Notes: generated by a model not told the origin, from the sequence alone. DNA of 64,000 nt from an uncultured Nitrososphaeraceae archaeon (GCA_963779615.1 CAVZZA010000003.1:32001-96000); one strand, 5' to 3'; positions 3,582 to 63,184 are shown, counted from the first letter of the stretch. Numbers and translations are program-made.

Positions 3582-3802
3582 AATAATGTCATTCATCTTT
3601 ATAGAGACACTCTATTCAGTTGTTTTTGGTATTAATTATAGTCACAAAACAATATAAAGAAAACCACCTGGAAAGCGCATTGGATGTTCCTTATGATTGG
3701 GTCTACCACCCTTGACGACCCTTTATGTCAGCAAAAGGAATCTGACAACAAACTCAAATGCTATAGAGTCGGGATTGCGACTTTAACAGAAAAATGCAGA
3801 GG

Positions 3803-3946: not shown

Positions 3947-4322
3947 ACTTGTACACTCTATTACAATATGATCAAAGAATATAAAGAATTACAAAACTAC
4001 AAAACCATATAAGAATGATGACAATATTCCGGTCTCCCAAACATCAACATGGAAAACAAACAACATCAGATTATGAAAAGCCCCAACTCATAAATCTGCC
4101 AGTATGTTTTTTCATTAATAACGGCCCGGATTCAATAAATTACAAGGAGAAGAAAAGTCATAATCTATTTGAACAAGTAACAAAAGGTTTTGGGCTTTAA
4201 ATGCAAACAGGAATTTAACTCCTAGTTTTATTATTTTTATGTTAATTTTAGAAATGGATAATATGGTGATAATGCCCATTTTTTGTTAGTTTATAAAAAG
4301 GCGGAGGTATACGCCATTATAC

Positions 4323-5087: not shown

Positions 5088-5479
5088 TGCAGAGCATCAT
5101 TGCCGGCCTATTCAACTTTTCTAACTCGGCACTTTATGGTAAGATGACATATTAATATAGTTAGAGAAGGGAAAAGGGATCCATTTGTATTTTCAATCCA
5201 CCATTCTAAAAACAAACAAAAATAAGAAAGAAAACTTGTTCGGGTTAATTTATGATTTCAAGCAGGATAGTTCAACTAACATTGCATCTGCAGTTAATAA
5301 CATAAAAAAAATTAATGGAACCGCCTAATTTTTTTATTGCCTCATTGACATCACAATGTCAAGTCAAAAGATGAAAATGTATACGGCCAACTCAGGATAT
5401 GAACACATTGCCCTGAATAGGACAATTTGCAACGGTTATCCTTTTGCAGCGTTGTTTTCTTTTTGTTTGGTATCTCCGC

Positions 5480-7204
5480 TCACTTCCCTACAGTGACCAT
5501 GGCTGTCATCCATGGATGAATTGTGCAGTAATAGGGATATCCCCCTTCTTTTTCAAATTTATGCTTAAATGAACCATTACCCATTATAATTCCAGAATCA
5601 AATTCACCACTTGGCCCTGATTTTGCAAGCCCTGATGTTACGGTGTGAGGAATACTGTCATCATTGTTTGTCCATGTTACTTCGGTCCCTTGCTTTATCT
5701 TTGGGTTAGGGGGATCATAGAATATTTTGTTGCCAGGGTTAGCCGCACCCGAAACTATGGAAACCAAGTCATTTTTATTGTCGTTGCTGCCGCTGTTTAA
5801 AGTCATATTGGCGTCGGTGTTGTTTTTATCACTTGATTTTGTGGCTAAACTCTTATCCAGTGATAAAGACAGGTTTTCCCCGCCTTGTTGTATCTCTTTA
5901 GTTTCATTGTCTGTATTTTGCTCCTCCAGGGTGTCCCCGCCTTGAGAGTAATTCATCACTTGCGGTCTTTGCAACTTTTTTTGCAATTCATATTGCCAGT
6001 CAAACATGGACACGCTTTTGGTTAACGGCTTAGAACTGTTGTCAGATTGAGCAACAGACGATGATGTGGAATTTTCATTGTTTAATTGGGACTCTATCGG
6101 CGCTACCCCTTTTCCTGTTTCTTCTTCTTCTTCTTCGCCTCCCCCTGCAACAACTTGTATCTGACCCATATTGCCCCTTTCTTCCTGGATTCCATGGCTA
6201 TGGAACAAAAAGGTACCAGGATATTTCCACTTGGCCTCAATTATTGATGCGTCTCCGGGGGCTATGGGGACAGTCTGTGCATGAAAAGGGGGATTGTCCC
6301 ACAACCCTGACGGATAGGCGGAAAATGTGGTGCTGTGAAGATGGAAAGAGACGGGTATTGATGTACCGAGATTAATTACATACAATCGCATTAACTCGCC
6401 ATAATTAATTTGAAGGGGATTATGCATATACTGATCGGCATATCCATTTATGATATAATAATCGGCATCCAGCCCTAACTGATCCTCGAGGCTGTATTCA
6501 CCCATCACCATGACAAATTCTTTTGCGGGTGGCAATGGTTTGTCCTTTGGGTCTACGATTAGTGCACCGTACATGCCCATCCTTATATGCAAAGAGGTTG
6601 GCGGAGCATGGCAATGGTACATTAACGCGCCGGCAGGCTCACCCGTTATGTTATACAAATATGTTTGATTGGGCATTACTTGAGGAACCACACCATCATT
6701 CAAGTCATCATGATTACCGTGGAAATGTATTGTGTGAGGGATTGGAGATTTATTTATGTATTTAATGGTCACATTTTCACCTTCGGTCAACCTTATAGTA
6801 GGTCCGGGAACTGTTCCATTGTATGTCCAGACCTTAACCTTTTTTCCAGGGGCGATATCAATTTCTGCGTCCTCTGTAACAAGGGTTATCTGTCTATTTG
6901 GGACAGTTGCCTCCCTATCTGGCTTGGCATTGTTTTCTTTACCCGCGCTTGCACTAGACAAAAATGATCCATTGTCCTGTTTGAGGTTTGCTTGGCTGAC
7001 TGCTTGTGCAAACACGATATTATCATTATCATACACAACTATCTTTTCACCAGTGATTGAAAGAGACACAAATATTGCAAAAAGAGACAAAATCGGTAAA
7101 ATCAAACAATAACCTTTTTTTAATAACTTTAATCTGTTCACCAATAACCTGTTCATCAAGTTTGATTTGATATGCCCTGAAATACAATATAAATTTATAA
7201 GCAA
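5480..7204 (-). CDS. Two-domain multicopper oxidase fused to a C-terminal plastocyanin-like cupredoxin
   Basis: HTIHFHG, YHCH...LHIRMGM, FHLHS and FHSHG motifs; C-terminal HTVTS...YYCTIHPWM; N-terminal TM/signal segment. The start may be a downstream Met. Confidence 0.9.
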   Translation of the reverse strand: MLINLYCISGHIKSNLMNRLLVNRLKLLKKGYCLILPILSLFAIFVSLSITGEKIVVYDNDNIVFAQAVSQANLKQDNGSFLSSASAGKENNAKPDREATVPNRQITLVTEDAEIDIAPGKKVKVWTYNGTVPGPTIRLTEGENVTIKYINKSPIPHTIHFHGNHDDLNDGVVPQVMPNQTYLYNITGEPAGALMYHCHAPPTSLHIRMGMYGALIVDPKDKPLPPAKEFVMVMGEYSLEDQLGLDADYYIINGYADQYMHNPLQINYGELMRLYVINLGTSIPVSFHLHSTTFSAYPSGLWDNPPFHAQTVPIAPGDASIIEAKWKYPGTFLFHSHGIQEERGNMGQIQVVAGGGEEEEEETGKGVAPIESQLNNENSTSSSVAQSDNSSKPLTKSVSMFDWQYELQKKLQRPQVMNYSQGGDTLEEQNTDNETKEIQQGGENLSLSLDKSLATKSSDKNNTDANMTLNSGSNDNKNDLVSIVSGAANPGNKIFYDPPNPKIKQGTEVTWTNNDDSIPHTVTSGLAKSGPSGEFDSGIIMGNGSFKHKFEKEGGYPYYCTIHPWMTAMVTVGK

Positions 7205-7424
7205 TTCAGTGCCAATATTCCCATTTTAAGGTTCAAAACAGGCATTTACAAACCATAATGAAAATAAATGAAAAGACCGGCATTGTAGTCCATCACCCAT
7301 CAAATGAACACGTCAATAAAAAATCAAGAACATAAAAAAAAGATAAACTTGATTGTCCCTTAATGTAATGCGTTGTCAATCGAATTGAGGTTACTTTTGT
7401 GCTCCTCAAACCGATTCCACGGGT

Positions 7425-43107: not shown

Positions 43108-44664
43108 TCACTTTGATATTGATAGGTTTGTCCTCCTTTTTAAAATGAGCCCCGATGCAATGGATATGGTTGATATCAAAGTAGCTGTTAGAAAGATCAG
43201 GTTGTAAGATAATAATGATGGATATGATCTTCCACCAACTTCATTCACAGAGTCTTGGTATGTTTGCATGAATATTGAGGCAATCACAGGTCCGATTGAA
43301 CTTCCAATTAGCACAATTACAATCGATATACCAACGGATACACCACTAAATTGGTGTGGAGTGTATTGCAACACGATATTAAATGCGCCTACATTTATCA
43401 ATGACAGCCCTGCAGATATCATCACCAAATTAACAGCAATCATGAATTCCGTTGCATGAAAAACAAACAGGACGAAAAAACCAATTGTTGTGATAATGCT
43501 CCCCGCTATTACTGGTATAAAGTTACCAATTTTAGCTACAATGAATCCGGAAGAAGGAGCAAATACCAAAAACACTACCATAAAGGGCAATTGGATATTG
43601 GCACTGGTTATTGCGTCCCCGCCAAATCCAATGGGCGGAGGACTAGTTACTAAAATTGGAATAGTTTGATACACCATAAACATTGTGATACCAAAAGTTA
43701 GAAGAATGATGTTCGTAGGAAGAAGGATTTTATTTGCTATTAAATTAAGTGGGATTAACGGCGTTGGTACTTTCCGCTCTATGACAATAAAAAGGATTGA
43801 GGAGACTATTGTTAATGTGGCTAATGAAACTAAAACAGCAAAAGTATAGGACGAATCAACTGAACCCCTGTTGATATCACTATTAGTATTTGCAAAATAG
43901 GTCAGCGTAAGTAAAAATGAAGTTATTGTTATTGCCAAGGTTACAGTTCCCTTTAGGTCCATGCTATATTCATTACTGTTAACAATTTTTTGCGACTCTG
44001 AGGTGTTCTTTATTGTATGATTGGCATCTATACTTTGCATAAAATCTGCTTCCCCATTTCTTTTTTCCTCCGCTTTTGAGCGGTCATCGTTTTGGACAAA
44101 TTGTTTGATTATTACCCAAAGAATAATAGCAACAGGTATTATAGTAAAAAATGTAGACTGCCATCCGAAATTTTTAATGATAGTGCCACCTATCGCTATG
44201 CCCACTACTGAACCTGCAGCAAACATTGAACTAAATATACCAACACTTATTGCAAGCTTATGTACTGGAAATTGATCTCTTATAATCCCAAATGCTATCG
44301 GAAACATGGATATACCCAAGCCTTGGATAACCCTAGCAGTAAGAAGAACATAGATATTAGTCGATAGCCCACCAAGAACAATTCCTATGATATAGACAAT
44401 AAATATAATCAACACCATTTTCTTTTTGCCATAAACATCAGATAGTTTTCCGGCAATTGGAGTCATTACCGCGCCTGAAATAAGGTATGCCGTAAGTATC
44501 CACGATGAAGTGCTATACGAAATATCAAAATCTTTAATGATCTGGCCAATAGCTGGTATTAACATAGTCTCACCATACATAGTAATTAAAATGGTAGACC
44601 CCAAAATGGCAAGTGTTATCCATGTGGATGCCTGAATTTTTTCAGAAGGTTTTGCCACATTCAT
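43108..44664 (-). CDS. MFS transporter (14 TM)
   Basis: GKLSDVYGKKK, ARVIQGLG and FGWQSTF. Confidence 0.92.
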   Translation of the reverse strand: MNVAKPSEKIQASTWITLAILGSTILITMYGETMLIPAIGQIIKDFDISYSTSSWILTAYLISGAVMTPIAGKLSDVYGKKKMVLIIFIVYIIGIVLGGLSTNIYVLLTARVIQGLGISMFPIAFGIIRDQFPVHKLAISVGIFSSMFAAGSVVGIAIGGTIIKNFGWQSTFFTIIPVAIILWVIIKQFVQNDDRSKAEEKRNGEADFMQSIDANHTIKNTSESQKIVNSNEYSMDLKGTVTLAITITSFLLTLTYFANTNSDINRGSVDSSYTFAVLVSLATLTIVSSILFIVIERKVPTPLIPLNLIANKILLPTNIILLTFGITMFMVYQTIPILVTSPPPIGFGGDAITSANIQLPFMVVFLVFAPSSGFIVAKIGNFIPVIAGSIITTIGFFVLFVFHATEFMIAVNLVMISAGLSLINVGAFNIVLQYTPHQFSGVSVGISIVIVLIGSSIGPVIASIFMQTYQDSVNEVGGRSYPSLLSYNLIFLTATLISTISIASGLILKRRTNLSISK

Positions 44665-45431: not shown

Positions 45432-46371
45432 GACCCTATACCAAAACTATCATTCTATAAACAGTTATCCCCAGGAGAACGGTACTAACTCAAGATAGTT
45501 TTCCATCTTTTCATATCATTTGAATATCTTTCTAAACCTGTTGTGCCATGAGTTGGTTCTCTCCACAACCCATGTTCTTGCAGGATGTTCTTTGCGATTT
45601 GAGGTTTTTTCTTTTCCGTATCTTTCTTGACCTCTCTTTTTTTTCTCCTGTACGGTAAATGTAGCACATATCCTCGTTTTGCAATTGCTTGTTCTTCGGG
45701 CTTGGACTATATGCTTTATCAAGACAAGGGTGTTGCAGTTTTCTTTTTCTTCCCGTCTTTGTTTTAGCATATGGAATACATCTTTAGCAACCGCATTATC
45801 CACTACATCTGTTACTAATTTAACATCATTCATACTTGCAGATGACATGACAGCTGAGAGCGGGATACCTTCCTTATCTGTTAAAACATGCTTATTTGTG
45901 CCCAGCTTGCCTCTGTCGGCGGGATTGCTTCCAGTCATCTCCCCCCCCTAAATGCGACTTTATGGATACGCTGTCAGGTGAGCACCAGGTCCACTTGATG
46001 CCCACTAGATTGTCATAGATTTTTAGCACCCTTATCCATATTTTCCTAAAGATGTCAAGTTTAATCCATTCCTGAAATCGCCTATGGCATGTCGAACCAG
46101 ATCCATTTCCAGGATGGAACACCTTCCATCGGCATCCTGTTCTTAGAATGTATAGGACACCAGCAAGTACTTTTTTAAATGGTATGATTGGACGACCAAC
46201 AGTTTTAGATTGTTTCTCTTTGGGTCAAACGATTCTAAAATTATCCCACAATTCATCTGAAATCTTGCATATAGTGCAAATATCCTTTTTATCCTCCTCC
46301 TTCTGGATGCAGGCCCCACGTTGGCAGTGATGATAACAAGCTATACTTCTATCGAATTTTGGGATAGGCTC
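45432..46371 (-). mobile_element. Degenerate IS5-family (IS427/IS1031-like) element with imperfect TIRs
   Basis: Fragments GSTCHRRFQEW, NPADRGKLGTNKHVLTDKEGIPLS and WVVERTNSWHNRFRK. Ends GACCCTATACCAAAA (45432) and the reverse complement GAGCCTATCCCAAAA (46357-46371) match at 13/15. Confidence 0.88.
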
Positions 46372-49678: not shown

Positions 49679-51187
49679 ATGCAGGTAGGAAAAATCTACA
49701 GAAATTCCTCATTAGACATAACAAATGAATTAGAAAAGGCCGAAATAAAGTGGGTAAGACTAAATTTTTGCGATCCTTTGGGTTATCTTCATCAAATTTC
49801 TGTCAACAGCAAGGAGATTACAGAGGATGCATTTAAGCAAGGACTACCAAGGCTCGATGGCAGCTCCATAAAAGGATTTAAGGAGATCTATGAGTCAGAT
49901 ATGCTGCTCAAACCCGACCCTTCCACTTTTGCCATATTGCCAGACTATTTTGACAAAAATCACCATCAGACTAGGGACTGCACATATCCTTCAATGGCGG
50001 CACGCATGTTTGTCGATATTTATGAGGGATTCGGTGGAAAAAGGTATTCTAGGGATAGCAGATATATCGCACAAAAAGCCGAAGAGGTATTGAATGACAA
50101 AGGCTTTGAGAAGAGTTATTGGGGGCCCGAGTTGGAATTTTTTGTTTTCAACAAAATTACTCTCCTACCAAATCCCATGTCCTCCGTAAATTGTTCTGGT
50201 GGGTCGGGATACTCTATTGAATCCTCCGAGGCACCGTGGAACTCCTCCAATGACAGTGGGTACACCATTCCATTTAAGGGAGGCTACTTTCCTGCTCCCC
50301 CAGCAGACAGTTTGACAGATTTAAGAGATGAAGTTTCGGAAACTTTGCAAGAGTTTTTTGGAATAAGAGTTGATGCCCATCACCACGAGGTCGCGACAGC
50401 CGGACAATGTGAGATTCAGATGGTATATGATGAGCTTACACACATGGCAGACAACGTAATTACCTACAAGAAGACAGTAAAGGAAGTCGCGGCCAAACGC
50501 CATATGATTGCAAATTTTATGCCAAAACCAATAGCGCTTGATAATGGTTCTGGTATGCATGTGAGCCAGAGCTTGTGGACAAAAAGGAAGCATGGAAATG
50601 ACATGAATGTGTTCTTTGATATTTCCGACGAATACGCAGAGCTAAGCCAAACCGCCCATTACTATATTGGAGGATTAATAGAGCATGCAAGGTCGCTTTG
50701 CGCTATAACAAACCCCACAACCAATTCCTACAGGAGATTAGTCCCTGGGTATGAAGCCCCAATAAATGTGGCATGGAGTAAAATGAATAGATCGGCCAGT
50801 ATAAGAATTCCTGCCCACTTCAAAAACATGGAGAGGCAGAAAAGAATAGAGTACAGAACACCTGATCCAAGTTCAAACATCTACCTTGTGGAGGCTGCGT
50901 TGTTGTTGGCAGGTCTTGATGGGATAAACAAAAAAATTTCGCCACCAGACCACATAGATAAGGACATTTACAAACTTACAGAACAACAAAAAAGAGAAGG
51001 AGGAATCAAGAAATTACCCACTTCATTATTGGACGCTATTGAGTCTTTGGAATCAGACAATGAGTTTTTGAAGCCAGTTTTTACAAATGACTTCCTTGAA
51101 ACATACTTCCAGATCAGAAAAGATGAGTATACAGCAGTTGCAGCAGTTCCCTCACCGAGAGAATTTTATATGTACGGGAATATCTAG
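49679..51187 (+). CDS. glnA: Glutamine synthetase type I
   Basis: DGSSIKGF, DMLLKPD, GPELEFF, GGYFP, HHHEVATAGQ, FMPKP...NGSGMH, NSYRRLVPGYEAP, NRSASIRIP and RIEYRTPDP, plus a GSI-beta-type insertion (GYSIESSEAPWNS). Confidence 0.97.
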   Translation: MQVGKIYRNSSLDITNELEKAEIKWVRLNFCDPLGYLHQISVNSKEITEDAFKQGLPRLDGSSIKGFKEIYESDMLLKPDPSTFAILPDYFDKNHHQTRDCTYPSMAARMFVDIYEGFGGKRYSRDSRYIAQKAEEVLNDKGFEKSYWGPELEFFVFNKITLLPNPMSSVNCSGGSGYSIESSEAPWNSSNDSGYTIPFKGGYFPAPPADSLTDLRDEVSETLQEFFGIRVDAHHHEVATAGQCEIQMVYDELTHMADNVITYKKTVKEVAAKRHMIANFMPKPIALDNGSGMHVSQSLWTKRKHGNDMNVFFDISDEYAELSQTAHYYIGGLIEHARSLCAITNPTTNSYRRLVPGYEAPINVAWSKMNRSASIRIPAHFKNMERQKRIEYRTPDPSSNIYLVEAALLLAGLDGINKKISPPDHIDKDIYKLTEQQKREGGIKKLPTSLLDAIESLESDNEFLKPVFTNDFLETYFQIRKDEYTAVAAVPSPREFYMYGNI

Positions 51188-51805
51188 TTAAAGACATGTC
51201 GTATCCTAAAGATGTATTGGAGACTAAAGGAAACCTTCTGAAGGAATCTTCTGCTTCTTCTTATTCTCCTATTCTAACAGACAATATTTCGAATTCTCAT
51301 TATTATGACAAGACAAAGATAATCCTAGACGCAAGAAAAGCATTTGATGGGCTTATCCCATATTCAGGATTAGGCGCCAATTCAACGAATGATTATTTTT
51401 CATCTATTGATTTTATTGGCGGTGGAAAACTTAAAGCAGATGAAGACTACAGCGATGTGGATCTATCAGTAACGATTGAGAGCGTTATTTATATGTATGG
51501 GAATGTCTAGTTAAAGATATGTCGTATCCTAAAGATGTATTGGAGATTAAAAGAAACCTTCTGAAGGAATCTTCTGCTTCTTCTAGTAGTATTTTAGATA
51601 ATATTTCGAATTCTCATTATTATGACAAGACAAAGATAATCCTAGACGCAAGAAAAGCATTTGATGGGCTTATCCCATATTCAGGATTAGGCGCCAATTC
51701 AACGAATGATTATTTTTCATCTATTGATTTTATTGGCGGTGGAAAACTTAAAGCAGATGAAGACTACAGCGATGTGGATCTATCATTAACGATTGGAGGA
51801 CGTTA
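51165..51805 (+). repeat. Tandem duplication of about 320 bp (glnA 3' end + spacer + 5' of the FMN-subunit gene)
   Basis: Copy 1 is 51165-51487 and copy 2 is 51488-~51805. A 186-nt core is identical (51283-51468 = 51600-51785); the flanks differ. Confidence 0.95.
51196..51510 (+). CDS. Truncated duplicate of the FMN-subunit N-terminus fused in frame to a copy of the GlnA C-terminal peptide
   Basis: Residues 1-~95 match the next ORF, and it ends YMYGNV*, whereas GlnA ends YMYGNI*. Confidence 0.5.
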   Translation: MSYPKDVLETKGNLLKESSASSYSPILTDNISNSHYYDKTKIILDARKAFDGLIPYSGLGANSTNDYFSSIDFIGGGKLKADEDYSDVDLSVTIESVIYMYGNV

Positions 51806-52988
51806 CTCAAATAATGTTATAACATCAGACATACCATTTTTTGTTTCTGGTATGAGCTATGGTTCATTGAAGCTTCCTGCAAAAATAGCATTGCACATAG
51901 CATTAAACAAACTTGCTATTGAAGATGGGATAAGAGTAATAATGAATACTGGTGAAGGTGGAGCATTGCCATGGGAAATCTATGGCTCGGATACTAAAAA
52001 TAATAGTATAATGGAATATGCTGAAAGGCTGCTTAGGGAGCACAATTTAGACAGTATAGATAGAGAACAACTTTTCCAAAGGCATTATCCTTTGGTAGTT
52101 CAATATGCGTCAGGCAGATTTTGGAGAGACCCTAACTACTTGTTGATACCGGATGCGATAGAAATCAAGATAGGTCAGGGTGCAAAAATAGGACATGGAG
52201 GAATGTTACCAGGTTCAAAGGTAACGGAGCTCGTAGCTGAGAATCGTGGAATACCTCCTTATAGATCAGCTTACTCGCCTTCAAGACATTTAGATATCTT
52301 GGGGCCTGAGGATTTGGTTGCCAAGATCCTTGAATTAAGAGAACTCACTGATTGGAAGGTTCCAATAATTGTAAAGGTAGGGGCTTCAAGAGCTTATGAT
52401 GACATTCAGATAATACTCAAATCTTATGCAGATTCTGCTGCCATAGATGGAATTGTGGGAGGTACTGGTGCGGCTCCATGGGAGATTCGAGATATTGTTG
52501 GAATAAATACAATACCTTCGATAAGGTTGGGAAAAAATGCAATAAATGATTATTATTTGAATAACGAGACAAATGAGTTTAAACTACTCGCCCATGGTGG
52601 TATTTGGGATTCGAAACGAATTGCAAAATGCATTGCTCTTGGAGCAAATGGAGTAGGCATAGGTACAGGGTTTCTCATATCAATGGGGTGTACATTGATT
52701 CAAGACTGTTATACTAATACTTGTCCTGCAGGCTTAACCGGCTCATTTGAAAAGCTTGATATAGAATTCAGTGTAAAGAGAATAATCAATTACATTAAGG
52801 GAACAATGATCGAACTGCAAAATATTGTAGGTTCATTAGGGAAGAAAAGAATCAAAGACCTTGGCCGAGAGGATCTTATTGCTACTGATGAAATATCAAG
52901 CATAGTATCGGGACTCTATAACAATAAGAATGTAAAGGCAGAGGATCATAGAATGTATGGAAAAAAAATTGCTGAGTTAAAAAATTGA
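51519..52988 (+). CDS. Glutamate synthase FMN-binding subunit (archaeal GltB2 / GlxD-MgsC-like)
   Basis: MSYGSL, NTGEGG, QYASGRF, IEIKIGQGAKIGHGGML, IIVKVG, IDG..GGTGAAP and [3Fe-4S] motif CTLIQDCYTNTCPAG. Confidence 0.92.
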   Translation: MSYPKDVLEIKRNLLKESSASSSSILDNISNSHYYDKTKIILDARKAFDGLIPYSGLGANSTNDYFSSIDFIGGGKLKADEDYSDVDLSLTIGGRYSNNVITSDIPFFVSGMSYGSLKLPAKIALHIALNKLAIEDGIRVIMNTGEGGALPWEIYGSDTKNNSIMEYAERLLREHNLDSIDREQLFQRHYPLVVQYASGRFWRDPNYLLIPDAIEIKIGQGAKIGHGGMLPGSKVTELVAENRGIPPYRSAYSPSRHLDILGPEDLVAKILELRELTDWKVPIIVKVGASRAYDDIQIILKSYADSAAIDGIVGGTGAAPWEIRDIVGINTIPSIRLGKNAINDYYLNNETNEFKLLAHGGIWDSKRIAKCIALGANGVGIGTGFLISMGCTLIQDCYTNTCPAGLTGSFEKLDIEFSVKRIINYIKGTMIELQNIVGSLGKKRIKDLGREDLIATDEISSIVSGLYNNKNVKAEDHRMYGKKIAELKN

Positions 52989-54145
52989 ATCCCAAAGAGA
53001 AATTTATTATAAGGTCTTCGATCCTAGAATTAGCAGAAACTGGTACTCCTCGCAGTATTTCAATAGATGAAAAAATAAGAATGGATCACAAAGAAAGAGG
53101 AAATGAAAATACAACAACAAACATCTGGGATTGCATAACTGCGTTGGGTGCACAATTATCAAGGCCCCCCTATGATCCATATCGGGAGATAATAAATCTT
53201 GGAATATCTGTAGGCAGAAGACAATGTCCAACTAAGGTTATTTTATCTATGCCCCTGATGATTTATGATAACGATAGGAAGATAGAAGAAGCGCCTTTGG
53301 AGGCTCTACATGTTGCATTGAATTGGCTTGCTGTTAATGACAATATAAATTTAGGATTGGTTTCAGAAAATAGAGTAAACAATAGTAGAAAGTACCCACA
53401 TTTTAAACGAATAAGCGAAAGATCAATAGGGGAGGAGGATTATGATTCTGAAGGACTTGTATTACAATACAACAGTGGCAAATCCCTACAATTTCTAACA
53501 GAGATGAGGAAAGAATTCAGCGGCCCAATTCTTGTAGAGATTGATGATGATTTTGAGAGATACATTGGATCATTGCTGGATGCAGGAGCTGATGGAATTA
53601 TTGCAGATACTGTTAAAATAACAAACAAAGAGAGGTACCAAGGAAAACATGCAGTAACAGTAATACACAAGGTACGATGCGCTATAAACCAATACTATGC
53701 TGGAAAAGAAAATGATGGTACGTTATTAATGGTTGCAGGGGACTTGAATAATACAGGCAGAATTGTAAAAGCTGCTGCATTGGGTGCGGATATTATTGGA
53801 TACTCCACCAGTTTGTTGATTGCAAATGCTGCAATTCATCATGATAACCCATCCAACATAAATGCAATATCAGAAAGGATCTGTAGACACATTCAGGCCA
53901 CCAAAGGAGAACTTAAAGGAGTACCTGCCGCATTAGGATACAGTAATTTCTATAACATATCACCTGCGGATTTGCGTACCTCTAGTATCGAGGCAAGTTT
54001 ACAGGCGGATATTGCCATAGAAGGAGTGGATAAAACTTATCGCCAAATAATTGAGGAATCGACAGGTGAACATGCCATAGAAGAAGGAATGGAAATTGAT
54101 AAAGATAAAAATCAGAAACTTAGTTGCATATCTATTGATAAATAG
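52985..54145 (+). CDS. Degenerate glutamate synthase FMN-barrel paralogue
   Basis: AQLSRPPYDPYRE, AGADGII, LMVAGDL...VKAAALGAD and ADLR are present. The GQGAK loop and Fe-S cysteines are absent. Its TTG overlaps the upstream TGA (TTGA). Confidence 0.8.
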   Translation: MNPKEKFIIRSSILELAETGTPRSISIDEKIRMDHKERGNENTTTNIWDCITALGAQLSRPPYDPYREIINLGISVGRRQCPTKVILSMPLMIYDNDRKIEEAPLEALHVALNWLAVNDNINLGLVSENRVNNSRKYPHFKRISERSIGEEDYDSEGLVLQYNSGKSLQFLTEMRKEFSGPILVEIDDDFERYIGSLLDAGADGIIADTVKITNKERYQGKHAVTVIHKVRCAINQYYAGKENDGTLLMVAGDLNNTGRIVKAAALGADIIGYSTSLLIANAAIHHDNPSNINAISERICRHIQATKGELKGVPAALGYSNFYNISPADLRTSSIEASLQADIAIEGVDKTYRQIIEESTGEHAIEEGMEIDKDKNQKLSCISIDK

Positions 54146-54167
54146 TTAAGGAGGGGACGGAAGGAAC

Positions 54168-55025
54168 ATGTGTGGCATTTGCGGAATTATATTAAAAGAT
54201 CACAATCCAAACTTTTCAATCGGTGCTCTGCTTTATCAGATGATGGAAGGCCAGCAGGTAAGAGCTCAAGATAGTGCAGGCATAGCCATTTTTAATAATG
54301 GAAATAGAGGTAATAACGATTCACTATATAATCTTACCTACCTTATGAAATCTCCTACTGGATACGAGTTGAGAGAAGAAAAAAGGCCTTTAAATGAACA
54401 AGATCGACGTGCTTCCAGATTAATCAAGGATGATCGGGTTTCTATAATAGGTTGTTCAAAAGAAATGAAGTTGGTCAAAGATGTAGGCCTTGTAAGAGAT
54501 CTTGATAAAAAATATGATATAAAATCAATGCAAGGATCTCACGGTATTGGACATTTAAGAATAGCAACGAGCAGTAGAGTTGACATGCATAATGCCCATC
54601 CATTCAGTACTACAGTCATGCCCGATATAGCAGTTGTGCATAATGGAGAAATCACAAATTATTCCAAATTAAAGAATTCGCTTGAGATTCAAGGATACCC
54701 TTTCTATTCTAATTGTGATTCAGAGGTCATAGCTGTTTTTCTTGCTGACCAGTTGTTAAAGCATGGAGACATAGAAAGGGCACATAATGAATTTATTCAA
54801 AAAGCCGATGGGCCATTTACCTATATTGCTGCTACAAATCATTCATTATCATTGATAAGGGATAGATTTGGAACAAGAAAGGGGATTGTAGGATACAATC
54901 CAGGAGGAGAGGGCCATCCTGCATTCTGGGCAATGGCAACGGATCTATCTGCATTAGATATTGTCGGAGCTAACGAAGATGTGAAAGCAGCGTCACCAGG
55001 CAAATCACTAATTTTCACAGTATAA
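54168..55025 (+). CDS. Class II (Ntn) glutamine amidotransferase subunit (GltB1 / GlxB-MgsA-like)
   Basis: N-terminal MCGI, DSAG, GIGHLRIAT, AHPF, VVHNGEITNY, DSEV and RDRFG, with SD-like AAGGAGG at 54148-54154. Confidence 0.92.
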   Translation: MCGICGIILKDHNPNFSIGALLYQMMEGQQVRAQDSAGIAIFNNGNRGNNDSLYNLTYLMKSPTGYELREEKRPLNEQDRRASRLIKDDRVSIIGCSKEMKLVKDVGLVRDLDKKYDIKSMQGSHGIGHLRIATSSRVDMHNAHPFSTTVMPDIAVVHNGEITNYSKLKNSLEIQGYPFYSNCDSEVIAVFLADQLLKHGDIERAHNEFIQKADGPFTYIAATNHSLSLIRDRFGTRKGIVGYNPGGEGHPAFWAMATDLSALDIVGANEDVKAASPGKSLIFTV

Positions 55026-55065
55026 TAAATAAATTAATAAAGCCATATCTAAAAAACAAAGACAA

Positions 55066-55995
55066 ATGTGTTATACGTTAGATATCGATGAATTACGAGC
55101 AATAGTAAAGGACATAGGCTCAAAGGTATCTAATCCAGATGCACAATTTGAAAGTGTCAACAACGCTTTTGAGAAGAATTTTGGAACAAAACTTCCTTAT
55201 GGATTAAAACGCGCATCTATAGAAAAATTTGGGGATGTTGCAAGTTCTCCCCTAATAATGGAAAGGGCAATTAACTCCATAATAAAAAAAAAGGTGGCAG
55301 CGGGTGAAACTAAAATCATACTAAAAAATCCAAAAGCCCTTTACAGAATAGGGATACTTGGTTATGATGAGACTATAAAATTAGACATGACAGTGGAAGG
55401 AAATGTTGGCAATTTTTTTGGCGCATTTTGCAACTTTGATGGAACCTGGATAGTTAATGGAAACGCCGAGAATGGATTGGCGGACAAGGGGTACAAAGGA
55501 AAAATAATTGTGGAAGGGTTTGCCACAGAACTTGCATGCCAAAACAATCAAGCAACCAAATTCAGTAATGGTGTCGATCTCTTGATTAAAAAAGGGTGTA
55601 TGGAGAGAGCTATGGGTCAAGCCAGGGGAGGAAGGTTGGTAACTTTTGGCGCAGGATACAATTCTGGTCTGTACATGTCAGGGGGAGTATTGCTTAATTT
55701 GGGCCTACCGGGAGAACTGTTTGGCCCTGGAATGGTTGGTGGCGTTATTTATTCTCCTGAAGGAACTACTGCAGCAGACGGTGCGGTTATCAATAAATTA
55801 AAGGTGGAAGATTATTCAATTATTAAAGAAACACTACGGGTATTTGAAAATGAGTTACGGATAGAGCAACTAGATAATTTATCCATGGAAAACCCGACAG
55901 TGTATTTAACCAACAATGTTATTAAAGATAATCAAAAGTATAACATAAGTGACTTTATCAAAATAGTCCCAAATATAACCAATTCTCATAACTAG
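55066..55995 (+). CDS. GXGXG beta-helix subunit (GltB3 / GlxC-MgsB / FwdC-like)
   Basis: VEGNVGNFFGAF, VNGNAENGLA, GAGYNSGLYMSGG and FGPGMVGGVIY repeats. Confidence 0.88.
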   Translation: MCYTLDIDELRAIVKDIGSKVSNPDAQFESVNNAFEKNFGTKLPYGLKRASIEKFGDVASSPLIMERAINSIIKKKVAAGETKIILKNPKALYRIGILGYDETIKLDMTVEGNVGNFFGAFCNFDGTWIVNGNAENGLADKGYKGKIIVEGFATELACQNNQATKFSNGVDLLIKKGCMERAMGQARGGRLVTFGAGYNSGLYMSGGVLLNLGLPGELFGPGMVGGVIYSPEGTTAADGAVINKLKVEDYSIIKETLRVFENELRIEQLDNLSMENPTVYLTNNVIKDNQKYNISDFIKIVPNITNSHN

Positions 55996-56107: not shown

Positions 56108-56546
56108 TCATAACAGCCGAAAATCCTCTTTCACAGTAATCAAAACTATATGTGTATTGGTTCTGTCAACATATGGTAACGATAGGTCCCTCTTGACAAA
56201 GTCACTTAATTCCCTTCGATTCCTAAATTTAGCAACTATTATCATATCCGTCAATCCAGTGATATCATAAACTGCACAAACATTTGGGAGCTTTGAAATG
56301 TGTTTCTCAACATCGTTTATTTTATTTTTGATTGCAGTTATTTCAATTACCGCCGTCAAATCAAATCCTAACTTTACATGGTCCACTATTGCAGAATAAG
56401 ATTTTATGATATTGTCTTTTTCCAATCTTGATATCCTGTTAAGTACCTGTGGGTGGAGAGACCCCTATTTCAAATGCTATTTTTCGGTAAGAACTCCTAG
56501 CATCTGCCAATAGCCTTTTTAATATCTTTGTGTCTGTCTCATCCAT
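56108..56546 (-). pseudogene. Lrp/AsnC transcriptional regulator, frameshifted (+1 at 56446-56447)
   Basis: MDETDTKILKRLLADARSSYRKIAFEIGVSPPT joins VLNRISRLEKDNIIKSY...VYDITG..DMI if one C/G is removed. Confidence 0.88.
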
Positions 56547-56998
56547 TAATGTGATTTGAATTGTTAACTTTATAAACATAAAAACAACTCCACTTTTTTT
56601 AATAAATATTAGTCAAAAACAATAACAAACATCGCATAATTATCAAAAAGCATAATTGGATATGCCTGAAAAAAGATGCAAGTACACCACCACCGTCAAA
56701 TGCTGTTGCTAATGCATCCCTATATATCAAAATAGGGAAAGGTGTCAATCTTGGCGACTGCTCGACTTGCCTTAACTTGTATTTTTTTTATTGCGGGTCA
56801 GAATATTTGATATCCTTGTAAATCTGTCACTATCAGTTGGAATATTTAGCAATCAATACGCGCTTAACCCAAAACTGCGCCTAAATGACAGAACAATATT
56901 ATTTGAATTATCAAAACAATGCTTGATTTGGCGGTATTGCTTTGATGGAGATAATGGTTGCTCCAGGAGTAGAAATCTGTTATATGGGACAACCTTTA

Positions 56999-60598: not shown

Positions 60599-60997
60599 CT
60601 ACGGAGCAAGTCCCTCTTTCAACTTTTCGGCTATAATATCTGATCTTGCCACAACACCAATAATCTTATTAGTATTATCCTCTACAACAGGCACCATTAC
60701 AACCTCTTTTTTAATCATAATATCAATTATGTCGTTTATTGGCGTGTCTTTATTTGCTACTGATGGATTTGGAGTCATTACATCTTTTGCTACCATGGTA
60801 TAGAGCTTTTTGCCCCCTCTTATGGCTTTTAGTACGTCAATAGCAGTCACAATACCAACAACAGAATCATTATCATTCACGACAGGCACCCCGTTAAAAT
60901 CTCCTGCAAACAGTTTAGCATTAATTTGTTCAACATTGGTGTTTTCTTTTACCATGTCAACCTGTGTGGACATTACATCTTTAGCATTCAAATCCAA
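60599..60997 (-). CDS. CBS domain pair protein
   Basis: AKDVMS...GVPVVN...VGIVTAID and AKDVMT...VPVVE...IGVVARSDI. Confidence 0.92.
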   Translation of the reverse strand: MDLNAKDVMSTQVDMVKENTNVEQINAKLFAGDFNGVPVVNDNDSVVGIVTAIDVLKAIRGGKKLYTMVAKDVMTPNPSVANKDTPINDIIDIMIKKEVVMVPVVEDNTNKIIGVVARSDIIAEKLKEGLAP

Positions 60998-61122
60998 TAC
61001 TCATTACACACCATCTTTTATCATTGTATAAAAGTTAGATATGCAACCTAAAAGGCCAATTCAATGCGTTACCTGTTTTAATGGGAGTCAGTAAACAAAT
61101 TAATTCTATTTTTTTAGATCCC

Positions 61123-62264
61123 ATACCAATTAGCACATATGTTCAAACTGCATTTTTCATCTGTTTATTTTTTAATAAATGTTTATAGCTAGGCTGATTC
61201 CATTGTCATCTTGTTCATTTGAATCTTACCAGAGAATCTTTTGAATGGATCTGTAGATGTGAACAGGATGTATAGACAAAGGAAAGTATGCTGCTTGTCC
61301 TCAACGTGATTTATCATGGTTTAATAGCTGCCAAGGTAGCCAGGGATCTCCACAGAAGTAAAGCTTGGGCCCGTGAATGGCTAAAAAAGATACTATAAGG
61401 AGGGTACAGGAGGATTAAAAAATAGACCTAAAAGCGGCAGACCACCTGAACTATCTGAAGAGATTAGTTTTAGCATAAAGAAAGAACTAAAGGAAAGCAA
61501 CCAGGGATGGACCACAAGACAGGTGGATGAACTGATTGTAAGAAAAAGTGGCATTAAGATATCATTACACCCACATATACCGCATACTTCGCAGGTGGGG
61601 CTTCAAACAGAAGGTTCCCCGAAAAACGCATGTTAATACTGCATCCAATGAAGAGAAGAATGATTTCAAAAAAAGGCCACCCAAATATTTGTGGATAGAC
61701 AACAGCAACAAAAAGAGGAGCAAAAAGAAGGCTTTTTTGCCCTAGTGTCTCTGGATGAATCCTTTTTCTTCTGTGATTCCCTGGTAAGGAGGGTTTTTTT
61801 GGGTTGATGAGAAGAAAAGACCTGTAGTGAGGGTAACAGGCTCACACAAGCATTCATGCATTTTCGGAGCCTTGAGTCTGGAAGGAAAGCAGCTGTTCAG
61901 ACATACGACAGGTTCAGTGGAGACACGTTCCTGGAGTTCCTAAAGACAATTCATTCCAGGTTTCCAAAATGCCACCTGTTTATGGACAAGGCGTCACCAC
62001 ACCACAGGTCAAGGAAGGTAAAACAAATATTTTGAGGAAAACAATGATACTCTGATACCAGCATGCCTTCCCACTGCGTCACCCGAGTTTATGGTTATGG
62101 ACGAGGTATGGAACAGCCAAGTGAGACCTGCTGGTGCTAAAACACTACCCATCCTTTTCAGATTTTAAAAACAGGATATCTCGGTATTTCAGGACAAAAA
62201 GATTCAGTCTTGCTATGAGAACCTATTTGTTAATGGATGTTCGATAACTTATGCTAAATGGTAT
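61123..62264 (+). mobile_element. Degenerate IS630-family element
   Basis: HTH fragments (SGRPP, RILRRWGFKQKVPRK), slippery A7G at 61668-75, SLDES, FMDKASPH and LPTASPEF. Ends ATACCAATTAGCA and reverse complement ATACCATTTAGCA match at 12/13. Confidence 0.88.
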
Positions 62265-62560
62265 AAATTCATTCATTATTCTTATCATAAAAAAATAAAA
62301 TAAATCCCACTAGGAAACAGCAACAACTATAACAAAGCATTTTTTATTGCGGGTATTCTTGTCGGCTATGTAATTTTGTTTCTTCTTGACGGTCAAATGA
62401 TGCATTGTATTGCACGCATCTTTATGGACTGTTTGTTTGGTGGATGGTGAGAATGATATGCAATGTTTAAAATATTTAATTGACACACCTTATAAAAATT
62501 ATTTACTTAATTTACTTCTAACAATTAGAGTTAAGCAAAAATTACAACTTTTTGGAATTA

Positions 62561-63184
62561 TCACTGCATATCAAATGCTATTCCTTCTTCCTCTGTTGCA
62601 TCCGTAACAAAAATAGCTGAATGATGATTTTCTAAAATTGTATTAGTCCACTTTCCTTCGGTATTGACTGTATTCTTACTAACATCATAATGACATAACA
62701 CCAAACCATTAAAATTTATAAGCATAGAATGATATTTTTGCTCTAGAGCCAAGTCAGCCTCGATATTCTCTTTTGTATTTAATTTATCAACAAATCTTAT
62801 TACCAGGCGAAAAGGCACGTTCAGGTCATGAAACATTTTTTCTATTATCCCTTCGGAGCCTTCAAATACACCTCTTGGATGTCTCACAACATCAGATATT
62901 TTACATATCTTTAGCAAACCTTTTTTGTTAAAATCCCTAACATTGATATTGTTACTGATCATATCCTTTTCAATAGACACTATATCATCGTCATGAGTGG
63001 CGTATACACAATATTCTCCCCTAATCAACCCATTTCTTATAAATCTGAATATAATCCTTTTACCAAATGGCGAATTCTGATAACAAAGAACAACATGCTT
63101 ATTGCTTTCTAAAGCATCTATAAATTTCAGGGGATCTTTGTATGTTTTATTAATGTCTTCATGCATAATTAGGTTAGAAATCAT
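62561..63184 (-). CDS. MEDS sensory domain protein
   Basis: HVVLCY...FRFIRNGLIRGEYCVY, LALEQ and VLCHYD...LENHHSAIF. Confidence 0.8.
   Translation of the reverse strand: MISNLIMHEDINKTYKDPLKFIDALESNKHVVLCYQNSPFGKRIIFRFIRNGLIRGEYCVYATHDDDIVSIEKDMISNNINVRDFNKKGLLKICKISDVVRHPRGVFEGSEGIIEKMFHDLNVPFRLVIRFVDKLNTKENIEADLALEQKYHSMLINFNGLVLCHYDVSKNTVNTEGKWTNTILENHHSAIFVTDATEEEGIAFDMQ

What the first reader, a model, noticed from the sequence alone, without database searches (positions are those of the whole stretch)
49679..55995. glnA operon with a glutamate-synthase-like enzyme split into four separate genes
Seen: glnA is followed, with spacers of -4 to about 40 nt, by an active FMN/[3Fe-4S] barrel, a degenerate barrel, an Ntn amidotransferase and a GXGXG beta-helix. 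No GltD, ferredoxin or other electron-input subunit is in the operon. Known: the bacterial GltB alpha chain has four domains (GATase, central incomplete barrel, FMN barrel, beta-helix), while split archaeal GltB1/2/3 and bacterial GlxBCD/MgsABC have three parts. Inference: this is a four-piece GOGAT in which a dead FMN paralogue fills the central-domain role. It would give an ammonia oxidiser a high-affinity GS/GOGAT route with an unknown electron donor (ferredoxin or F420).
Basis: partly seen in the sequence, partly recalled or inferred. Interest (0 to 1): 0.78.

Follow-up and report, generated by a model that had tools for sequence, protein, structure and literature searches.

The report
Four-gene glutamate synthase beside glutamine synthetase
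A soil ammonia-oxidising archaeon carries a compact gene set for glutamine synthetase plus a glutamate synthase built from four separate proteins, one of which is a catalytically stripped copy of the flavin barrel that seems to do the job of the "central domain" of the bacterial enzyme.

Summary
Window 49679-55995 encodes a type I GlnA, an FMN/[3Fe-4S] barrel, a degenerate barrel ("CEN"), a Cys1 Ntn amidotransferase and a GXGXG protein, all on the + strand. It is a diverged 323-nt tandem duplicate of the gene junction.

CEN is a full-length paralogue of the FMN subunit (hhalign 99.7%, E 2e-26). It lacks the catalytic Lys loop and the Fe-S loop, but keeps the motif GAQLSRPPYDPYRE, which aligns to the E. 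coli GltB central domain. It co-occurs with the FMN gene in 13 of 13 assessable genomes, is under purifying selection, is fused to an FMN barrel in other archaea, and is predicted to bind the FMN subunit (ipSAE 0.85, best control 0.00).

The module includes its own third GS paralogue and usually an Lrp/AsnC gene. No GltD was found in the genome. The FMN subunit has an insertion where ferredoxin-GOGAT has its own.

A methylamine enzyme is unlikely: the Fe-S cysteines and a type I GS are present.

"Four subunits of archaeal GOGAT" in Nitrosocosmicus is already in print (Alves 2019). What is new is the nature of the fourth subunit, its wider distribution and its bearing on GltB evolution. Enzyme activity and electron donor are untested.

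The parts
49679..51187 (+). Module-specific type I glutamine synthetase (third GlnA paralogue of the genome)
   Evidence: PF00120/PF03951 and TIGR00653 at 530 bits, above its 429 cut-off. The equivalents of E. coli D50/S53/Y179 are kept, unlike in the Paracoccus type III GS. The genome has 3 GS genes. Cluster-holding relatives G043 and G073 have 3, while non-holders G001, G032 and G054 have 2.
51165..51795 (+). Diverged tandem duplication (period 323/317 nt) of the glnA-3'/spacer/FMN-5' junction; the first copy yields the 104-aa ORF 51196-51510
   Evidence: the repeat finder families D1 and D2, 95% identity. The sequence and translations show the ORF is the FMN N-terminus followed by the GlnA C-terminal YMYGN tail. 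It is not seen in related loci, where glnA and the FMN gene are 8-30 nt apart.
51519..52988 (+). FMN/[3Fe-4S] synthase barrel subunit
   Evidence: PF01645 E 2.9e-80. 34% identical to the E. coli GltB FMN domain. K223, R243 and C391/C397/C402 are conserved. There are 43 residues between GEGG and QYASGRF, against 17 in Azospirillum GltB; Synechocystis Fd-GltS has its own insertion at the same site.
52985..54145 (+). CEN: degenerate complete barrel, paralogue of the FMN subunit and homologue of the GltB central domain
   Evidence: hhalign against the FMN family gives 99.7%, E 2e-26 over 324 columns. Against E. coli GltB it hits only 501-621, inside the central domain, E 8e-6. The AF2 model has pLDDT 83.7. 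VIA gives Z 19.8 with 303 residues aligned on Azospirillum GltB 787-1189. The catalytic loop and the Fe-S loop are missing. dN/dS is 0.16-0.24.
54168..55025 (+). Ntn (class II) glutamine amidotransferase subunit
   Evidence: PF13522/PF13537/PF13230. The N-terminus is MCGICG. It is fused to GXGXG in genome G106.
55066..55995 (+). GXGXG beta-helix subunit
   Evidence: PF01493 E 6e-12, plus a weak match to GltB 1269-1432.
56111..56582 (-). Lrp/AsnC-family gene linked to the module; interrupted here by a one-base frameshift
   Evidence: PF01037 on the 105-aa ORF. Homologues are present in 16 of 29 related loci, either convergent after GXG or divergent before glnA. tblastn places the N-terminal ~45 aa in another frame, and the sequence shows one extra G near 56453 relative to the relatives' reading frame.

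Best explanation
The region is a self-contained ammonia-assimilation module of Candidatus Nitrosocosmicus. It pairs a dedicated type I glutamine synthetase with a GltD-independent glutamate synthase assembled from four polypeptides.

Proposed mechanism (inferred):
1. The Cys1 amidotransferase hydrolyses glutamine.
2. Ammonia travels to the FMN barrel, where 2-oxoglutarate is aminated and then reduced by FMNH2.
3. FMN is re-reduced through the [3Fe-4S] cluster by an external one-electron protein donor. Ferredoxin is the most likely candidate.
4. The GXGXG helix buttresses the assembly.
5. CEN, a barrel that has lost its catalytic loops, packs its conserved N-terminal segment (GAQLSRPPYDPYRE, residues 55-68) against the catalytic loop and the Fe-S loop of the FMN subunit. 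In doing so it plays the scaffold and tunnel-lining part of the GltB central domain.

Shown here: gene content, conserved motifs, homology, co-occurrence, fusions in relatives, purifying selection, and a controlled complex prediction.

Inferred: the enzyme activity, the tunnel role, the identity of the donor, and regulation by the linked Lrp/AsnC protein.
For: **Domain content and catalytic motifs.** The three Fe-S cysteines are kept in the AOA FMN subunits, in the G106 and G113 forms and in E. coli GltB. They are lost in the Paracoccus MgsC-like protein.

**CEN is a paralogue of the FMN barrel and related to the central domain.**
- BLASTP against the FMN subunit gives two collinear HSPs, E 1e-9 and 2e-4.
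- hhalign against the FMN family gives 99.7%, E 2e-26.
- hhalign against E. coli GltB hits only 501-621, within the Pfam central domain 457-737.
- The 792-aa protein P0156 and the 708-aa G106 protein are FMN-CEN fusions. Their CEN half passes PF04898 at 58 and 29 bits, above the 22.8 cut-off. CEN aligns to that half at 98.3%, E 1e-14.

**Co-occurrence.** CEN is found in 14 of 101 family genomes. A strong PF01645 match occurs in 13 of those 14. The 14th has CEN at a contig end. There is no strong PF01645 match in the other 87.

**Synteny.** In 29 loci, FMN and CEN occur in 29, GAT in 27, GXG in 25 and glnA in 27. glnA is on the same strand in 21 and divergent in 6 Nitrosopumilaceae loci.

**Selection.** dN/dS for CEN is 0.16-0.24, against 0.04-0.18 for the other four genes.

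**Complex prediction.** ipSAE 0.85, best of 3 controls 0.00. That mark was reached by 116 of 157 solved complexes and 2 of 215 mismatched pairs. The counts hold only roughly because my own alignments were used. The runs agree in at least 90% of contacts, and the partner's pLDDT is at least 84. CEN residues 48-67 touch FMN residues 218-227, 252-256, 312-330 and 390-393.

**The GS is part of the module.** Genomes that hold the cluster have an extra GS paralogue, and its ammonium-site residues are kept.

**Presence in RNA libraries.** Contigs of RNA libraries from three soil studies cover all five genes and bridge the FMN/CEN, CEN/GAT and GAT/GXG junctions. This is a hint of expression, not proof.

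**Donor.** No GltD Fe-S domain was found in the genome. The AOA-specific insertion in the FMN subunit lies at the same site as the Fd-GltS insertion.
Against: - No activity data exist for this or any CEN-type enzyme.
- The complex pass may reflect the model's memory of the intramolecular central/FMN interface of solved GltB structures (caveat).
- The central-domain link rests on one 86-column hhalign hit at 83.6% probability. The same motif also occurs at the N-terminus of single-barrel archaeal FMN subunits. CEN could therefore come from a separate duplication.
- In the FMN tree the AOA subunits do not group with the GltB FMN domain, whereas the G106/P0156 fusions do at 98/95 support, though E. 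coli is a long branch.
- The insertion shares its position, not its sequence, with the Fd-GltS loop. That the loop binds ferredoxin is recalled, not checked here.
- JGI's automatic names call many FMN orthologues 'methylamine-glutamate N-methyltransferase subunit C'.
- In this genome the linked regulator gene is frameshifted and the glnA/FMN junction is duplicated.
Confidence: 0.72

Rival explanations
1. The module is an N-methylglutamate-pathway-like system (GmaS plus MgsABC) or another amine/amide transferase that needs no external reductant. That would explain the missing donor subunit.
For: JGI names for many orthologues of the FMN subunit read 'methylamine---glutamate N-methyltransferase subunit C'. 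The bacterial MgsABC-type cluster on a Paracoccus plasmid also joins a split GATase, GXGXG and FMN protein to a GS-like gene. No donor gene was found in the operon or genome.
Against: The Paracoccus FMN protein lacks all three Fe-S cysteines, whereas the AOA subunit keeps them. The Paracoccus partner is a type III GS lacking the D50/S53/Y179 equivalents. The window's GS passes the type I GlnA equivalog cut-off and keeps those residues. The Paracoccus cluster has three GOGAT-like genes and no CEN. In the tree the AOA FMN clade is separate from the Paracoccus sequence. The roles of D50/S53/Y179 are recalled from the GS literature.
Confidence: 0.07
2. CEN is not inert. It still binds a phosphorylated cofactor or effector in its barrel and acts as the electron-entry or regulatory subunit that replaces GltD.
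For: The best conserved stretch shared with FMN barrels is the beta7/beta8 phosphate-binding region. PF01645 matches residues 246-282, and N255, G258, K262 and G267 are invariant. The fold is a complete FMN-type barrel: Z 21.7 to IPP isomerase II and Z 19.8 to the GltB FMN domain. No other donor subunit was found.
Against: The GG and GTG glycine motifs of the FMN subunit read AGD and STS in CEN, and they vary across the family. The GGTGA segment and the whole catalytic loop are missing. No cysteine motif is present. In GltB the central domain is described as a truncated barrel (review PMC8097209); that it holds no cofactor is my recollection.
Confidence: 0.1
3. In this particular genome the module is decaying or mis-assembled and is no longer used.
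For: A 323-nt tandem duplication sits between glnA and the FMN gene. The linked Lrp/AsnC gene carries a one-base frameshift. A transposase fragment lies about 4 kb upstream. The distribution among relatives is patchy.
Against: All five structural ORFs are intact and full length. dN/dS against four relatives is 0.04-0.24. The duplication leaves a complete FMN gene with its own start and spacer. Near-identical sequence occurs in contigs of RNA libraries.
Confidence: 0.06

Closest known systems
Bacterial NADPH-glutamate synthase alpha chain GltB (E. coli, Azospirillum; PDB 1ea0, 6s6s)
   Same: The same four modules are present: Ntn GATase, central-type module, FMN/[3Fe-4S] barrel and GXGXG helix. 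The catalytic Lys/Arg and the C-X5-C-X4-C motif are conserved. CEN shares the central-domain motif.
   Different: Here there are four genes in the order FMN-CEN-GAT-GXG, not one chain in the order GAT-central-FMN-GXG. CEN appears to be a complete barrel, with 303 residues aligned on the FMN domain, whereas the literature describes the GltB central domain as truncated. No GltD partner was found.
Ferredoxin-dependent glutamate synthase (Synechocystis Fd-GltS, PDB 1llw/1ofd)
   Same: There is no GltD-type subunit and the [3Fe-4S] cluster is the only Fe-S centre. Both carry an insertion directly after the GEGG motif of the FMN barrel. For that segment Fd-GltS is the best PDB match.
   Different: Fd-GltS is a single 1520-residue chain. 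The inserted sequences are not alike. Use of ferredoxin by the AOA enzyme is inferred only.
Split archaeal GOGAT with a ferredoxin-like domain (seen here in non-AOA Nitrososphaeria G113/G114; the methanogen GltB1/2/3 type is named from memory)
   Same: Both have glnA next to a separate GATase and an FMN/[3Fe-4S] barrel with a GXGXG module. The N-terminus of that FMN barrel carries the AQTSRPPIDHYRE motif that CEN keeps.
   Different: The G113/G114 form has one barrel only, with GXGXG, two [4Fe-4S]-type motifs and FMN fused in a single 711-742-aa protein. Its GATase carries an ACT domain and there is no CEN. The AOA FMN subunit has no Fer4 domain.
Two-gene form in genome G106 and protein P0156: [GATase-GXGXG] plus [FMN-CEN] fusions
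   Same: It holds the same four modules including a CEN-type second barrel. The CEN half aligns with the window's CEN at 98.3%, E 1e-14.
   Different: The modules are fused pairwise. The CEN half is closer to Pfam Glu_syn_central. The FMN half groups with the E. coli GltB FMN domain rather than with the AOA clade. No glnA is adjacent.
MgsABC / GlxBCD-type three-subunit enzymes with type III GS (Paracoccus yeei plasmid pTT13-1 cluster)
   Same: It also has split GATase, GXGXG and FMN proteins next to a GS-family gene.
   Different: It has no Fe-S cysteines, no CEN, a type III GS without the ammonium-site residues, and a different gene order.

Membership tests
Glutamate synthase (GOGAT/GltS) catalytic core | N-terminal nucleophile Cys1 class-II glutamine amidotransferase | tested here: met
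   PF13522/PF13537/PF13230 hits. The ORF starts MCGICG.
Glutamate synthase (GOGAT/GltS) catalytic core | FMN synthase barrel with the QGAK..GG loop and the downstream Arg (Azospirillum K972/R992; residue roles recalled) | tested here: met
   PF01645 E 2.9e-80. K223 and R243 are invariant in alignment A3, which includes E. coli GltB.
Glutamate synthase (GOGAT/GltS) catalytic core | [3Fe-4S] ligand motif C-X5-C-X4-C-P | tested here: met
   C391/C397/C402 are invariant in 15 FMN orthologues and align with the E. coli and Azospirillum cysteines. Cluster binding itself was not tested.
Glutamate synthase (GOGAT/GltS) catalytic core | C-terminal GXGXG beta-helix | tested here: met
   PF01493 E 6e-12, above its cut-off.
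Glutamate synthase (GOGAT/GltS) catalytic core | Glutamine + 2-oxoglutarate + 2 e- gives 2 glutamate | not testable with these tools
The literature read infers the function from genes only.
NADPH-GOGAT (GltB + GltD) | GltD beta subunit (Fer4_20 plus FAD/NADPH domain) | tested here: not met
   PF14691 was not found in the own genome, which is 92.5% complete. The control rang in 10 of 14 reference genomes. None lies in the operon.
Ferredoxin-GOGAT (EC 1.4.7.1) | Single Fe-S centre, no GltD, and the Fd-GltS-type insertion after GEGG | tested here: inconclusive
   An insertion lies at the same site: 43 residues, against 17 in Azospirillum and about 35 in 1llw. There is no sequence likeness, and the donor is untested.
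Pfam Glu_syn_central (PF04898), tested for CEN | Match to the family profile above its gathering score | tested here: not met
   There is no PF04898 hit for the window's CEN, nor in the own genome at E<=1. Homology is supported indirectly. hhalign reaches GltB 501-621 at E 8e-6. Relative P0125 hits at E 6e-4, and the P0156 and G106 CEN halves score above the cut-off.
Pfam Glu_synthase (PF01645), tested for CEN | Match above the gathering score, with catalytic loop and Fe-S loop | tested here: not met
   16.1 bits against a cut-off of 20.4. The loops are absent. Paralogy is nevertheless clear at E 2e-26.
N-methylglutamate synthase MgsABC with GmaS | FMN subunit without Fe-S cysteines, type III GS-like GmaS, three subunits | tested here: not met
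   The cysteines are present, the GS is type I, and there are four subunits. The comparison was with the Paracoccus cluster. That cluster is identified by its annotation and layout, not by experiment.
Type I glutamine synthetase (GlnA) | TIGR00653 equivalog score and the ammonium-site D/S/Y residues | tested here: met
   530 bits against a 429 cut-off. DGSS and GGYFP are aligned with E. coli GlnA.

The most novel reading that the evidence does not exclude
CEN is a living representative of the stage before GltB was fused and trimmed. It is a free-standing, still complete second barrel made by duplicating a single-barrel archaeal FMN subunit. After the duplication the two copies divided the ancestral features. 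CEN kept the N-terminal AQ-S/T-R/N-PP-D-RE segment and lost the catalytic and Fe-S loops. The FMN copy kept those loops and lost the segment. This would settle the question that the 2021 review leaves open, namely whether the GltB central domain is a decayed FMN barrel. It would also give an experimentally separable 'central domain' for testing what that domain does, in an enzyme that probably takes electrons straight from ferredoxin.
Probability: 0.45. Interest if true: 0.62.

Novelty: new variant of a known kind. Interest (0 to 1): 0.5.

Why it matters
**For nitrifier physiology.** The module is the only GS-GOGAT route known in ammonia-oxidising archaea, which otherwise rely on glutamate dehydrogenase.

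This work shows that the route travels as a unit with its own GS and usually an Lrp/AsnC gene. It occurs in four Nitrososphaeraceae genera of the sample and in a few Nitrosopumilaceae, and it lacks any NAD(P)H-input subunit. How a chemolithoautotroph with little known reduced ferredoxin supplies the electrons therefore becomes a concrete, testable question.

**For enzymology.** The central domain of glutamate synthase cannot be removed from the single-chain enzymes. Here its counterpart is a separate protein, so its role in tunnel formation and in coupling the two active sites can be tested by simply leaving it out.

**For protein evolution.** CEN links the FMN barrel and the central domain by sequence as well as by fold.

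Tried and rejected
- **PDB sequence search with CEN.** It gave no meaningful match; the best was E 0.024 to a nicotinamidase.
- **Foldseek top 50.** It listed only generic FMN barrels and not GltB. The wide VIA search was needed to find GltB. It reports one alignment per chain, so a direct structural comparison of CEN with the GltB central domain alone could not be made.
- **PF04898 controls.** PF04898 'rings' in all 14 control genomes including methanogens. I first took this to mean a central domain in split archaeal enzymes. In G113/G114, however, the hit lies inside the FMN barrel at profile positions 134-216, so it is cross-talk between the two related profiles.
- **Metagenome scan with the distant CEN group (A2).** I did not examine them further. 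The gene context of P0129-P0131 and P0138 therefore remains unknown. The only hint is that P0129 and P0265 share a contig length of 5376 and that P0131 and P0263 share 7579.
- **Gaps between GAT and GXG in some relatives.** These gaps of 200-880 nt hold no conserved ORF and hence no hidden ferredoxin.
- **The 323-nt duplication in public runs.** The best DNA holder, X1, has almost no cover over 51216-51442, and its contigs of about 320 nt cannot bridge a repeat. RNA-library contigs of relatives leave the window sequence at 51269. The duplication is therefore neither confirmed nor refuted.
- **Literature on the Fd-GltS loop.** Searches for the Fd-GltS loop and for the tunnel residues Thr507/Asn508 found nothing usable. 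Those two points stay recalled.
- **F420 as donor.** Nothing in the data speaks for it.

Full report
**What is there**

The window lies in a 3.17-Mb, 5-contig genome. Source names for near-identical proteins place it in Candidatus Nitrosocosmicus.

Six ORFs run head to tail on the + strand from 49679 to 55995.

| Gene | Coordinates | Size | Evidence |
|---|---|---|---|
| glnA | 49679-51187 | 502 aa | Type I glutamine synthetase by Pfam and by the NCBIfam equivalog TIGR00653, 530 bits against a 429 cut-off |
| FMN | 51519-52988 | 489 aa | PF01645 at E 2.9e-80; 34% identical to the FMN domain of E. coli GltB |
| CEN | 52985-54145 | 386 aa | Only a sub-threshold PF01645 hit over residues 246-282 |
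| GAT | 54168-55025 | 285 aa | Class-II amidotransferase beginning MCGICG |
| GXG | 55066-55995 | 309 aa | GXGXG protein |

It is a 104-aa ORF at 51196-51510. Repeat analysis and the sequence show a tandem duplication with a period of 323 nt (317 nt after a 6-nt indel) and about 95% identity. The duplicated unit is the last ~20 nt of glnA, the 8-nt spacer and the first ~290 nt of the FMN gene. The ORF therefore reads FMN N-terminus followed by the GlnA tail YMYGN. Related loci have glnA and the FMN gene 8-30 nt apart without this duplication.

**The FMN subunit looks active**

In an alignment with E. coli GltB and other forms, several features are conserved:
- the QGAK(223)xGxGG loop;
- Arg243;
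- the GGTGA segment;
- the three cysteines C391/C397/C402, spaced C-X5-C-X4-C.

The equivalence to Azospirillum K972/R992 follows from the printed alignment. Their catalytic roles are recalled. The subunit has no ferredoxin-like domain.

**What CEN is**

*Paralogy with the FMN barrel.* BLASTP against its own neighbour gives two collinear matches: CEN 171-330 with FMN 270-453 at E 1e-9, and CEN 42-166 with FMN 60-200 at E 2e-4. CEN skips about 65 residues that hold the QGAK loop and the SPxxHxD segment. It also skips 14 residues that hold the cysteine motif.

Profile-profile comparison of a 21-sequence CEN alignment with a 15-sequence FMN alignment gives 99.7% probability, E 2e-26, over 324 columns.

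*Fold.* An AlphaFold2 model (pLDDT 83.7, pTM 0.85) is an FMN-type TIM barrel.
- Best VIA match: IPP isomerase II, Z 21.7, rmsd 3.1, 255 residues aligned.
- Azospirillum GltB: Z 19.8, rmsd 3.4, with the longest alignment of the list, 303 residues, model 2-343 on chain 787-1189. That range is the FMN domain.

*Link to the central domain.* The most conserved CEN segment, GAQLSRPPYDPYRE (residues 55-68, mostly invariant), aligns with AQVTNPPIDPLRE of E. coli GltB. The only hhalign hit of the CEN profile on the whole 1486-residue chain is 501-621 (83.6%, E 8e-6). That lies inside the Pfam central domain 457-737. In the single-chain model this segment is the low-confidence part, with residues 58-66 below pLDDT 50.

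*Family size.* The family is tiny. Only 40 representatives reach E<=1e-3 among 1.84 billion, and most of them are fragments. One full-length hit, P0156 (792 aa), is an FMN barrel fused to a CEN-type half. That half passes PF04898 (58 bits) and aligns with CEN at 98.3%, E 1e-14.

[quoted passage not shown] The SCOP paper (PMC5011417, passages read) states the duplication-plus-deletion scenario outright. CEN fits that scenario as an undeleted, unfused form.

*A complication.* The same motif sits at the N-terminus of the single-barrel FMN proteins of non-AOA relatives (AQTSRPPIDHYRE in G113). In degenerate form it also appears in the Paracoccus MgsC-like protein. It is lost in the AOA FMN subunit and in the E. 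coli FMN domain.

The simplest reading is that an ancestral barrel had both the motif and the catalytic loops, and that after duplication each copy kept one set. Whether the AOA duplication is the same event as the one behind GltB is open:
- In a 24-sequence tree the AOA FMN clade (99/97) is sister to an unnamed clade (P0263, P0265 and others; 100/100).
- The FMN halves of the G106 and P0156 fusions group with E. coli GltB (98/95), but E. coli is a long branch.

**Does CEN belong to the enzyme?**

*Co-occurrence.* In a 101-genome sample of the family (three of them unpublished genomes that only count as non-holders), CEN was found in 14. These are the own genome, 5 of 10 other genomes of the genus, 6 of 10 in a second genus, 1 of 2 in a third and 1 of 4 in a fourth. 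None was found in the other 14 genera.

A strong PF01645 match (E<=5e-79) occurs in 13 of these 14 and in none of the other 87. The 14th has CEN at the first bases of a contig.

*Wider sample.* In a 301-genome sample of the class, full-length CEN-type matches (E<=3e-30) were seen in 9 genomes. Only one of 180 Nitrosopumilaceae genomes was among them.

*Synteny.* A motif scan of species-representative genomes gave 29 loci, all Nitrososphaerales. Six of them are Nitrosopumilaceae or unclassified Thaumarchaeota MAGs.

Across these 29 loci, FMN and CEN are present in 29, GAT in 27, GXG in 25 and glnA in 27. The shortfalls are at contig ends. The order is always FMN-CEN-GAT-GXG. glnA lies upstream on the same strand in 21 loci and divergent in the 6 Nitrosopumilaceae-type loci.

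*Selection.* Nei-Gojobori dN/dS against four relatives is 0.16-0.24 for CEN and 0.04-0.18 for the other genes. CEN is thus constrained, if somewhat less tightly.

*Fusions.* In genome G106 the four modules are two genes, [GATase-GXGXG] of 632 aa and [FMN-CEN] of 708 aa. This is a Rosetta-stone argument for the FMN-CEN and GAT-GXG contacts.

*Complex prediction.* A controlled prediction of FMN with CEN supports binding. The score is 0.85 and the best of 3 controls is 0.00. That mark was reached by 116 of 157 solved complexes and 2 of 215 mismatched pairs. These counts hold only roughly because my own alignments were used. The runs agree in at least 90% of contacts, and the partner's pLDDT is at least 84.

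The interface puts CEN 48-67 against FMN 218-227 (the K223 loop), 252-256, 312-330 and 390-393 (the start of the cysteine loop). Solved GltB structures contain a comparable intramolecular interface, so the pass may partly be memory. It shows likeness, not binding.

**The GS and the regulator**

The genome has three GS genes. Two cluster-holding relatives have three, one of them 84-86% identical to the operon copy. Three non-holders of the same genus, each 98-99% complete, have only the other two. The operon GS is therefore part of the module.

It keeps the residues aligned with E. coli D50, S53 and Y179. The type III GS of the Paracoccus methylamine-type cluster does not. The roles of these residues are recalled.

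An Lrp/AsnC-family gene accompanies the module in 16 of 29 loci. It lies convergent behind GXG in the Nitrosocosmicus-type loci and divergent in front of glnA in the second genus. In the window it is interrupted by one extra G near 56453, which puts the N-terminal ~45 residues in another frame. This may be a sequencing error or a real lesion.

**Electron donor**

- No GltD Fe-S domain was found in the genome.
- No ferredoxin or other redox gene is conserved around the module.
- The retained cysteine motif argues for one-electron input.
- The AOA FMN subunits have 43 residues between GEGG and QYASGRF, where Azospirillum GltB has 17. Synechocystis ferredoxin-GltS has its own insertion at exactly this site (chain 907 to about 940), and for this segment it is the best PDB match.
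- In the complex model residues 150-192 are not at the CEN interface.

That the Fd-GltS loop is implicated in ferredoxin binding is recalled. My literature search for it found nothing. I therefore favour ferredoxin, at roughly even odds within the main reading.

**Rival: a methylamine enzyme**

JGI's pipeline names many orthologues 'methylamine-glutamate N-methyltransferase subunit C'. The annotated Paracoccus plasmid cluster (GATase, GXGXG, FMN protein, type III GS) differs in every diagnostic respect tested: it has no cysteine motif, no CEN, and a GS of another type without the ammonium-site residues. I give this rival about 7%.

**Presence in RNA libraries**

Logan contigs from RNA libraries of three soil studies (X6, X9, X10) lie on all five genes at 90-99% identity. 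They bridge the FMN/CEN, CEN/GAT and GAT/GXG junctions. Contigs cannot prove transcription or a single transcript, so this is only a hint.

**What is already known**

Alves et al. [quoted passage not shown] N. arcticus (NARC_80135-80138) and N. oleophilus, absent from N. exaquare and other AOA. The 2023 review repeats this.

A 2025 paper says GS-GOGAT is confined to Nitrosocosmicus and some Nitrosopumilaceae, although its evidence for its own strain, as far as I read, is glnA genes. Abby et al. infer loss of GOGAT at the origin of AOA.

None of the passages I read describes the fourth subunit. My searches on the central domain and archaeal GltB and on GOGAT subunits in Nitrosocosmicus found no such analysis. 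Supplements were not opened.

**Verdict**

The finding is real and correctly read, but its headline is not new. Five things are added here:
- the identity of the fourth subunit as a complete, catalytically stripped barrel carrying the central-domain motif;
- its strict linkage to the FMN subunit, and its fused relatives;
- the module-specific GS and the linked regulator;
- the broader but patchy distribution;
- the Fd-GltS-like insertion site.

I rate it a new variant of a known kind, with an interest score of about 0.5.

Noticed in passing
window 51165-51795: A diverged (about 95% identical) tandem duplication of 323/317 nt spans the glnA stop, the spacer and the 5' end of the FMN gene. It creates a 104-aa chimeric ORF. 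It is not present in any related locus examined.
   Followed up: partly
window 56111-56582 (- strand): An Lrp/AsnC-family gene, conserved next to the module in 16 of 29 related loci, is split here by a single extra G near 56453. This could be a pseudogene or an assembly error.
   Followed up: partly
L077 (G113) and L078 (G114): Non-AOA Nitrososphaeria carry a different GOGAT layout: glnA, then a GATase with an inserted ACT domain, then one 711-742-aa protein fusing GXGXG, two [4Fe-4S]-type motifs and the FMN barrel. The ACT domain suggests amino-acid control of the glutaminase.
   Followed up: partly
L080 (G106) 3247-7222: A two-gene GOGAT-like form with [GATase-GXGXG] and [FMN-CEN] fusions. 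A DAO-family FAD oxidoreductase ORF lies just upstream (1066-2433) and no glnA is adjacent.
   Followed up: partly
L020, L022, L024, L028, L029: In several MAG loci the module genes are broken into two or three ORF pieces. These are probably frameshifts in those assemblies, so gene counts taken from such MAGs would under-call the module.
   Followed up: no
L027, L031, L032, L037, L042, L044: In the second genus the GXGXG gene is separated from the GATase gene by 580-880 nt of AT-rich DNA without a conserved ORF. It is probably transcribed on its own there.
   Followed up: partly
window 45516-45938 (- strand): A weak DDE transposase fragment (PF01609, E 3e-4) lies about 4 kb upstream of the module, and an MFS transporter gene lies at 43108-44664.
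   Followed up: no
window 60599-63184 (- strand): A CBS-pair protein and a MEDS/KaiC-like sensory-domain protein lie downstream. They are not conserved next to the module in relatives.
   Followed up: no
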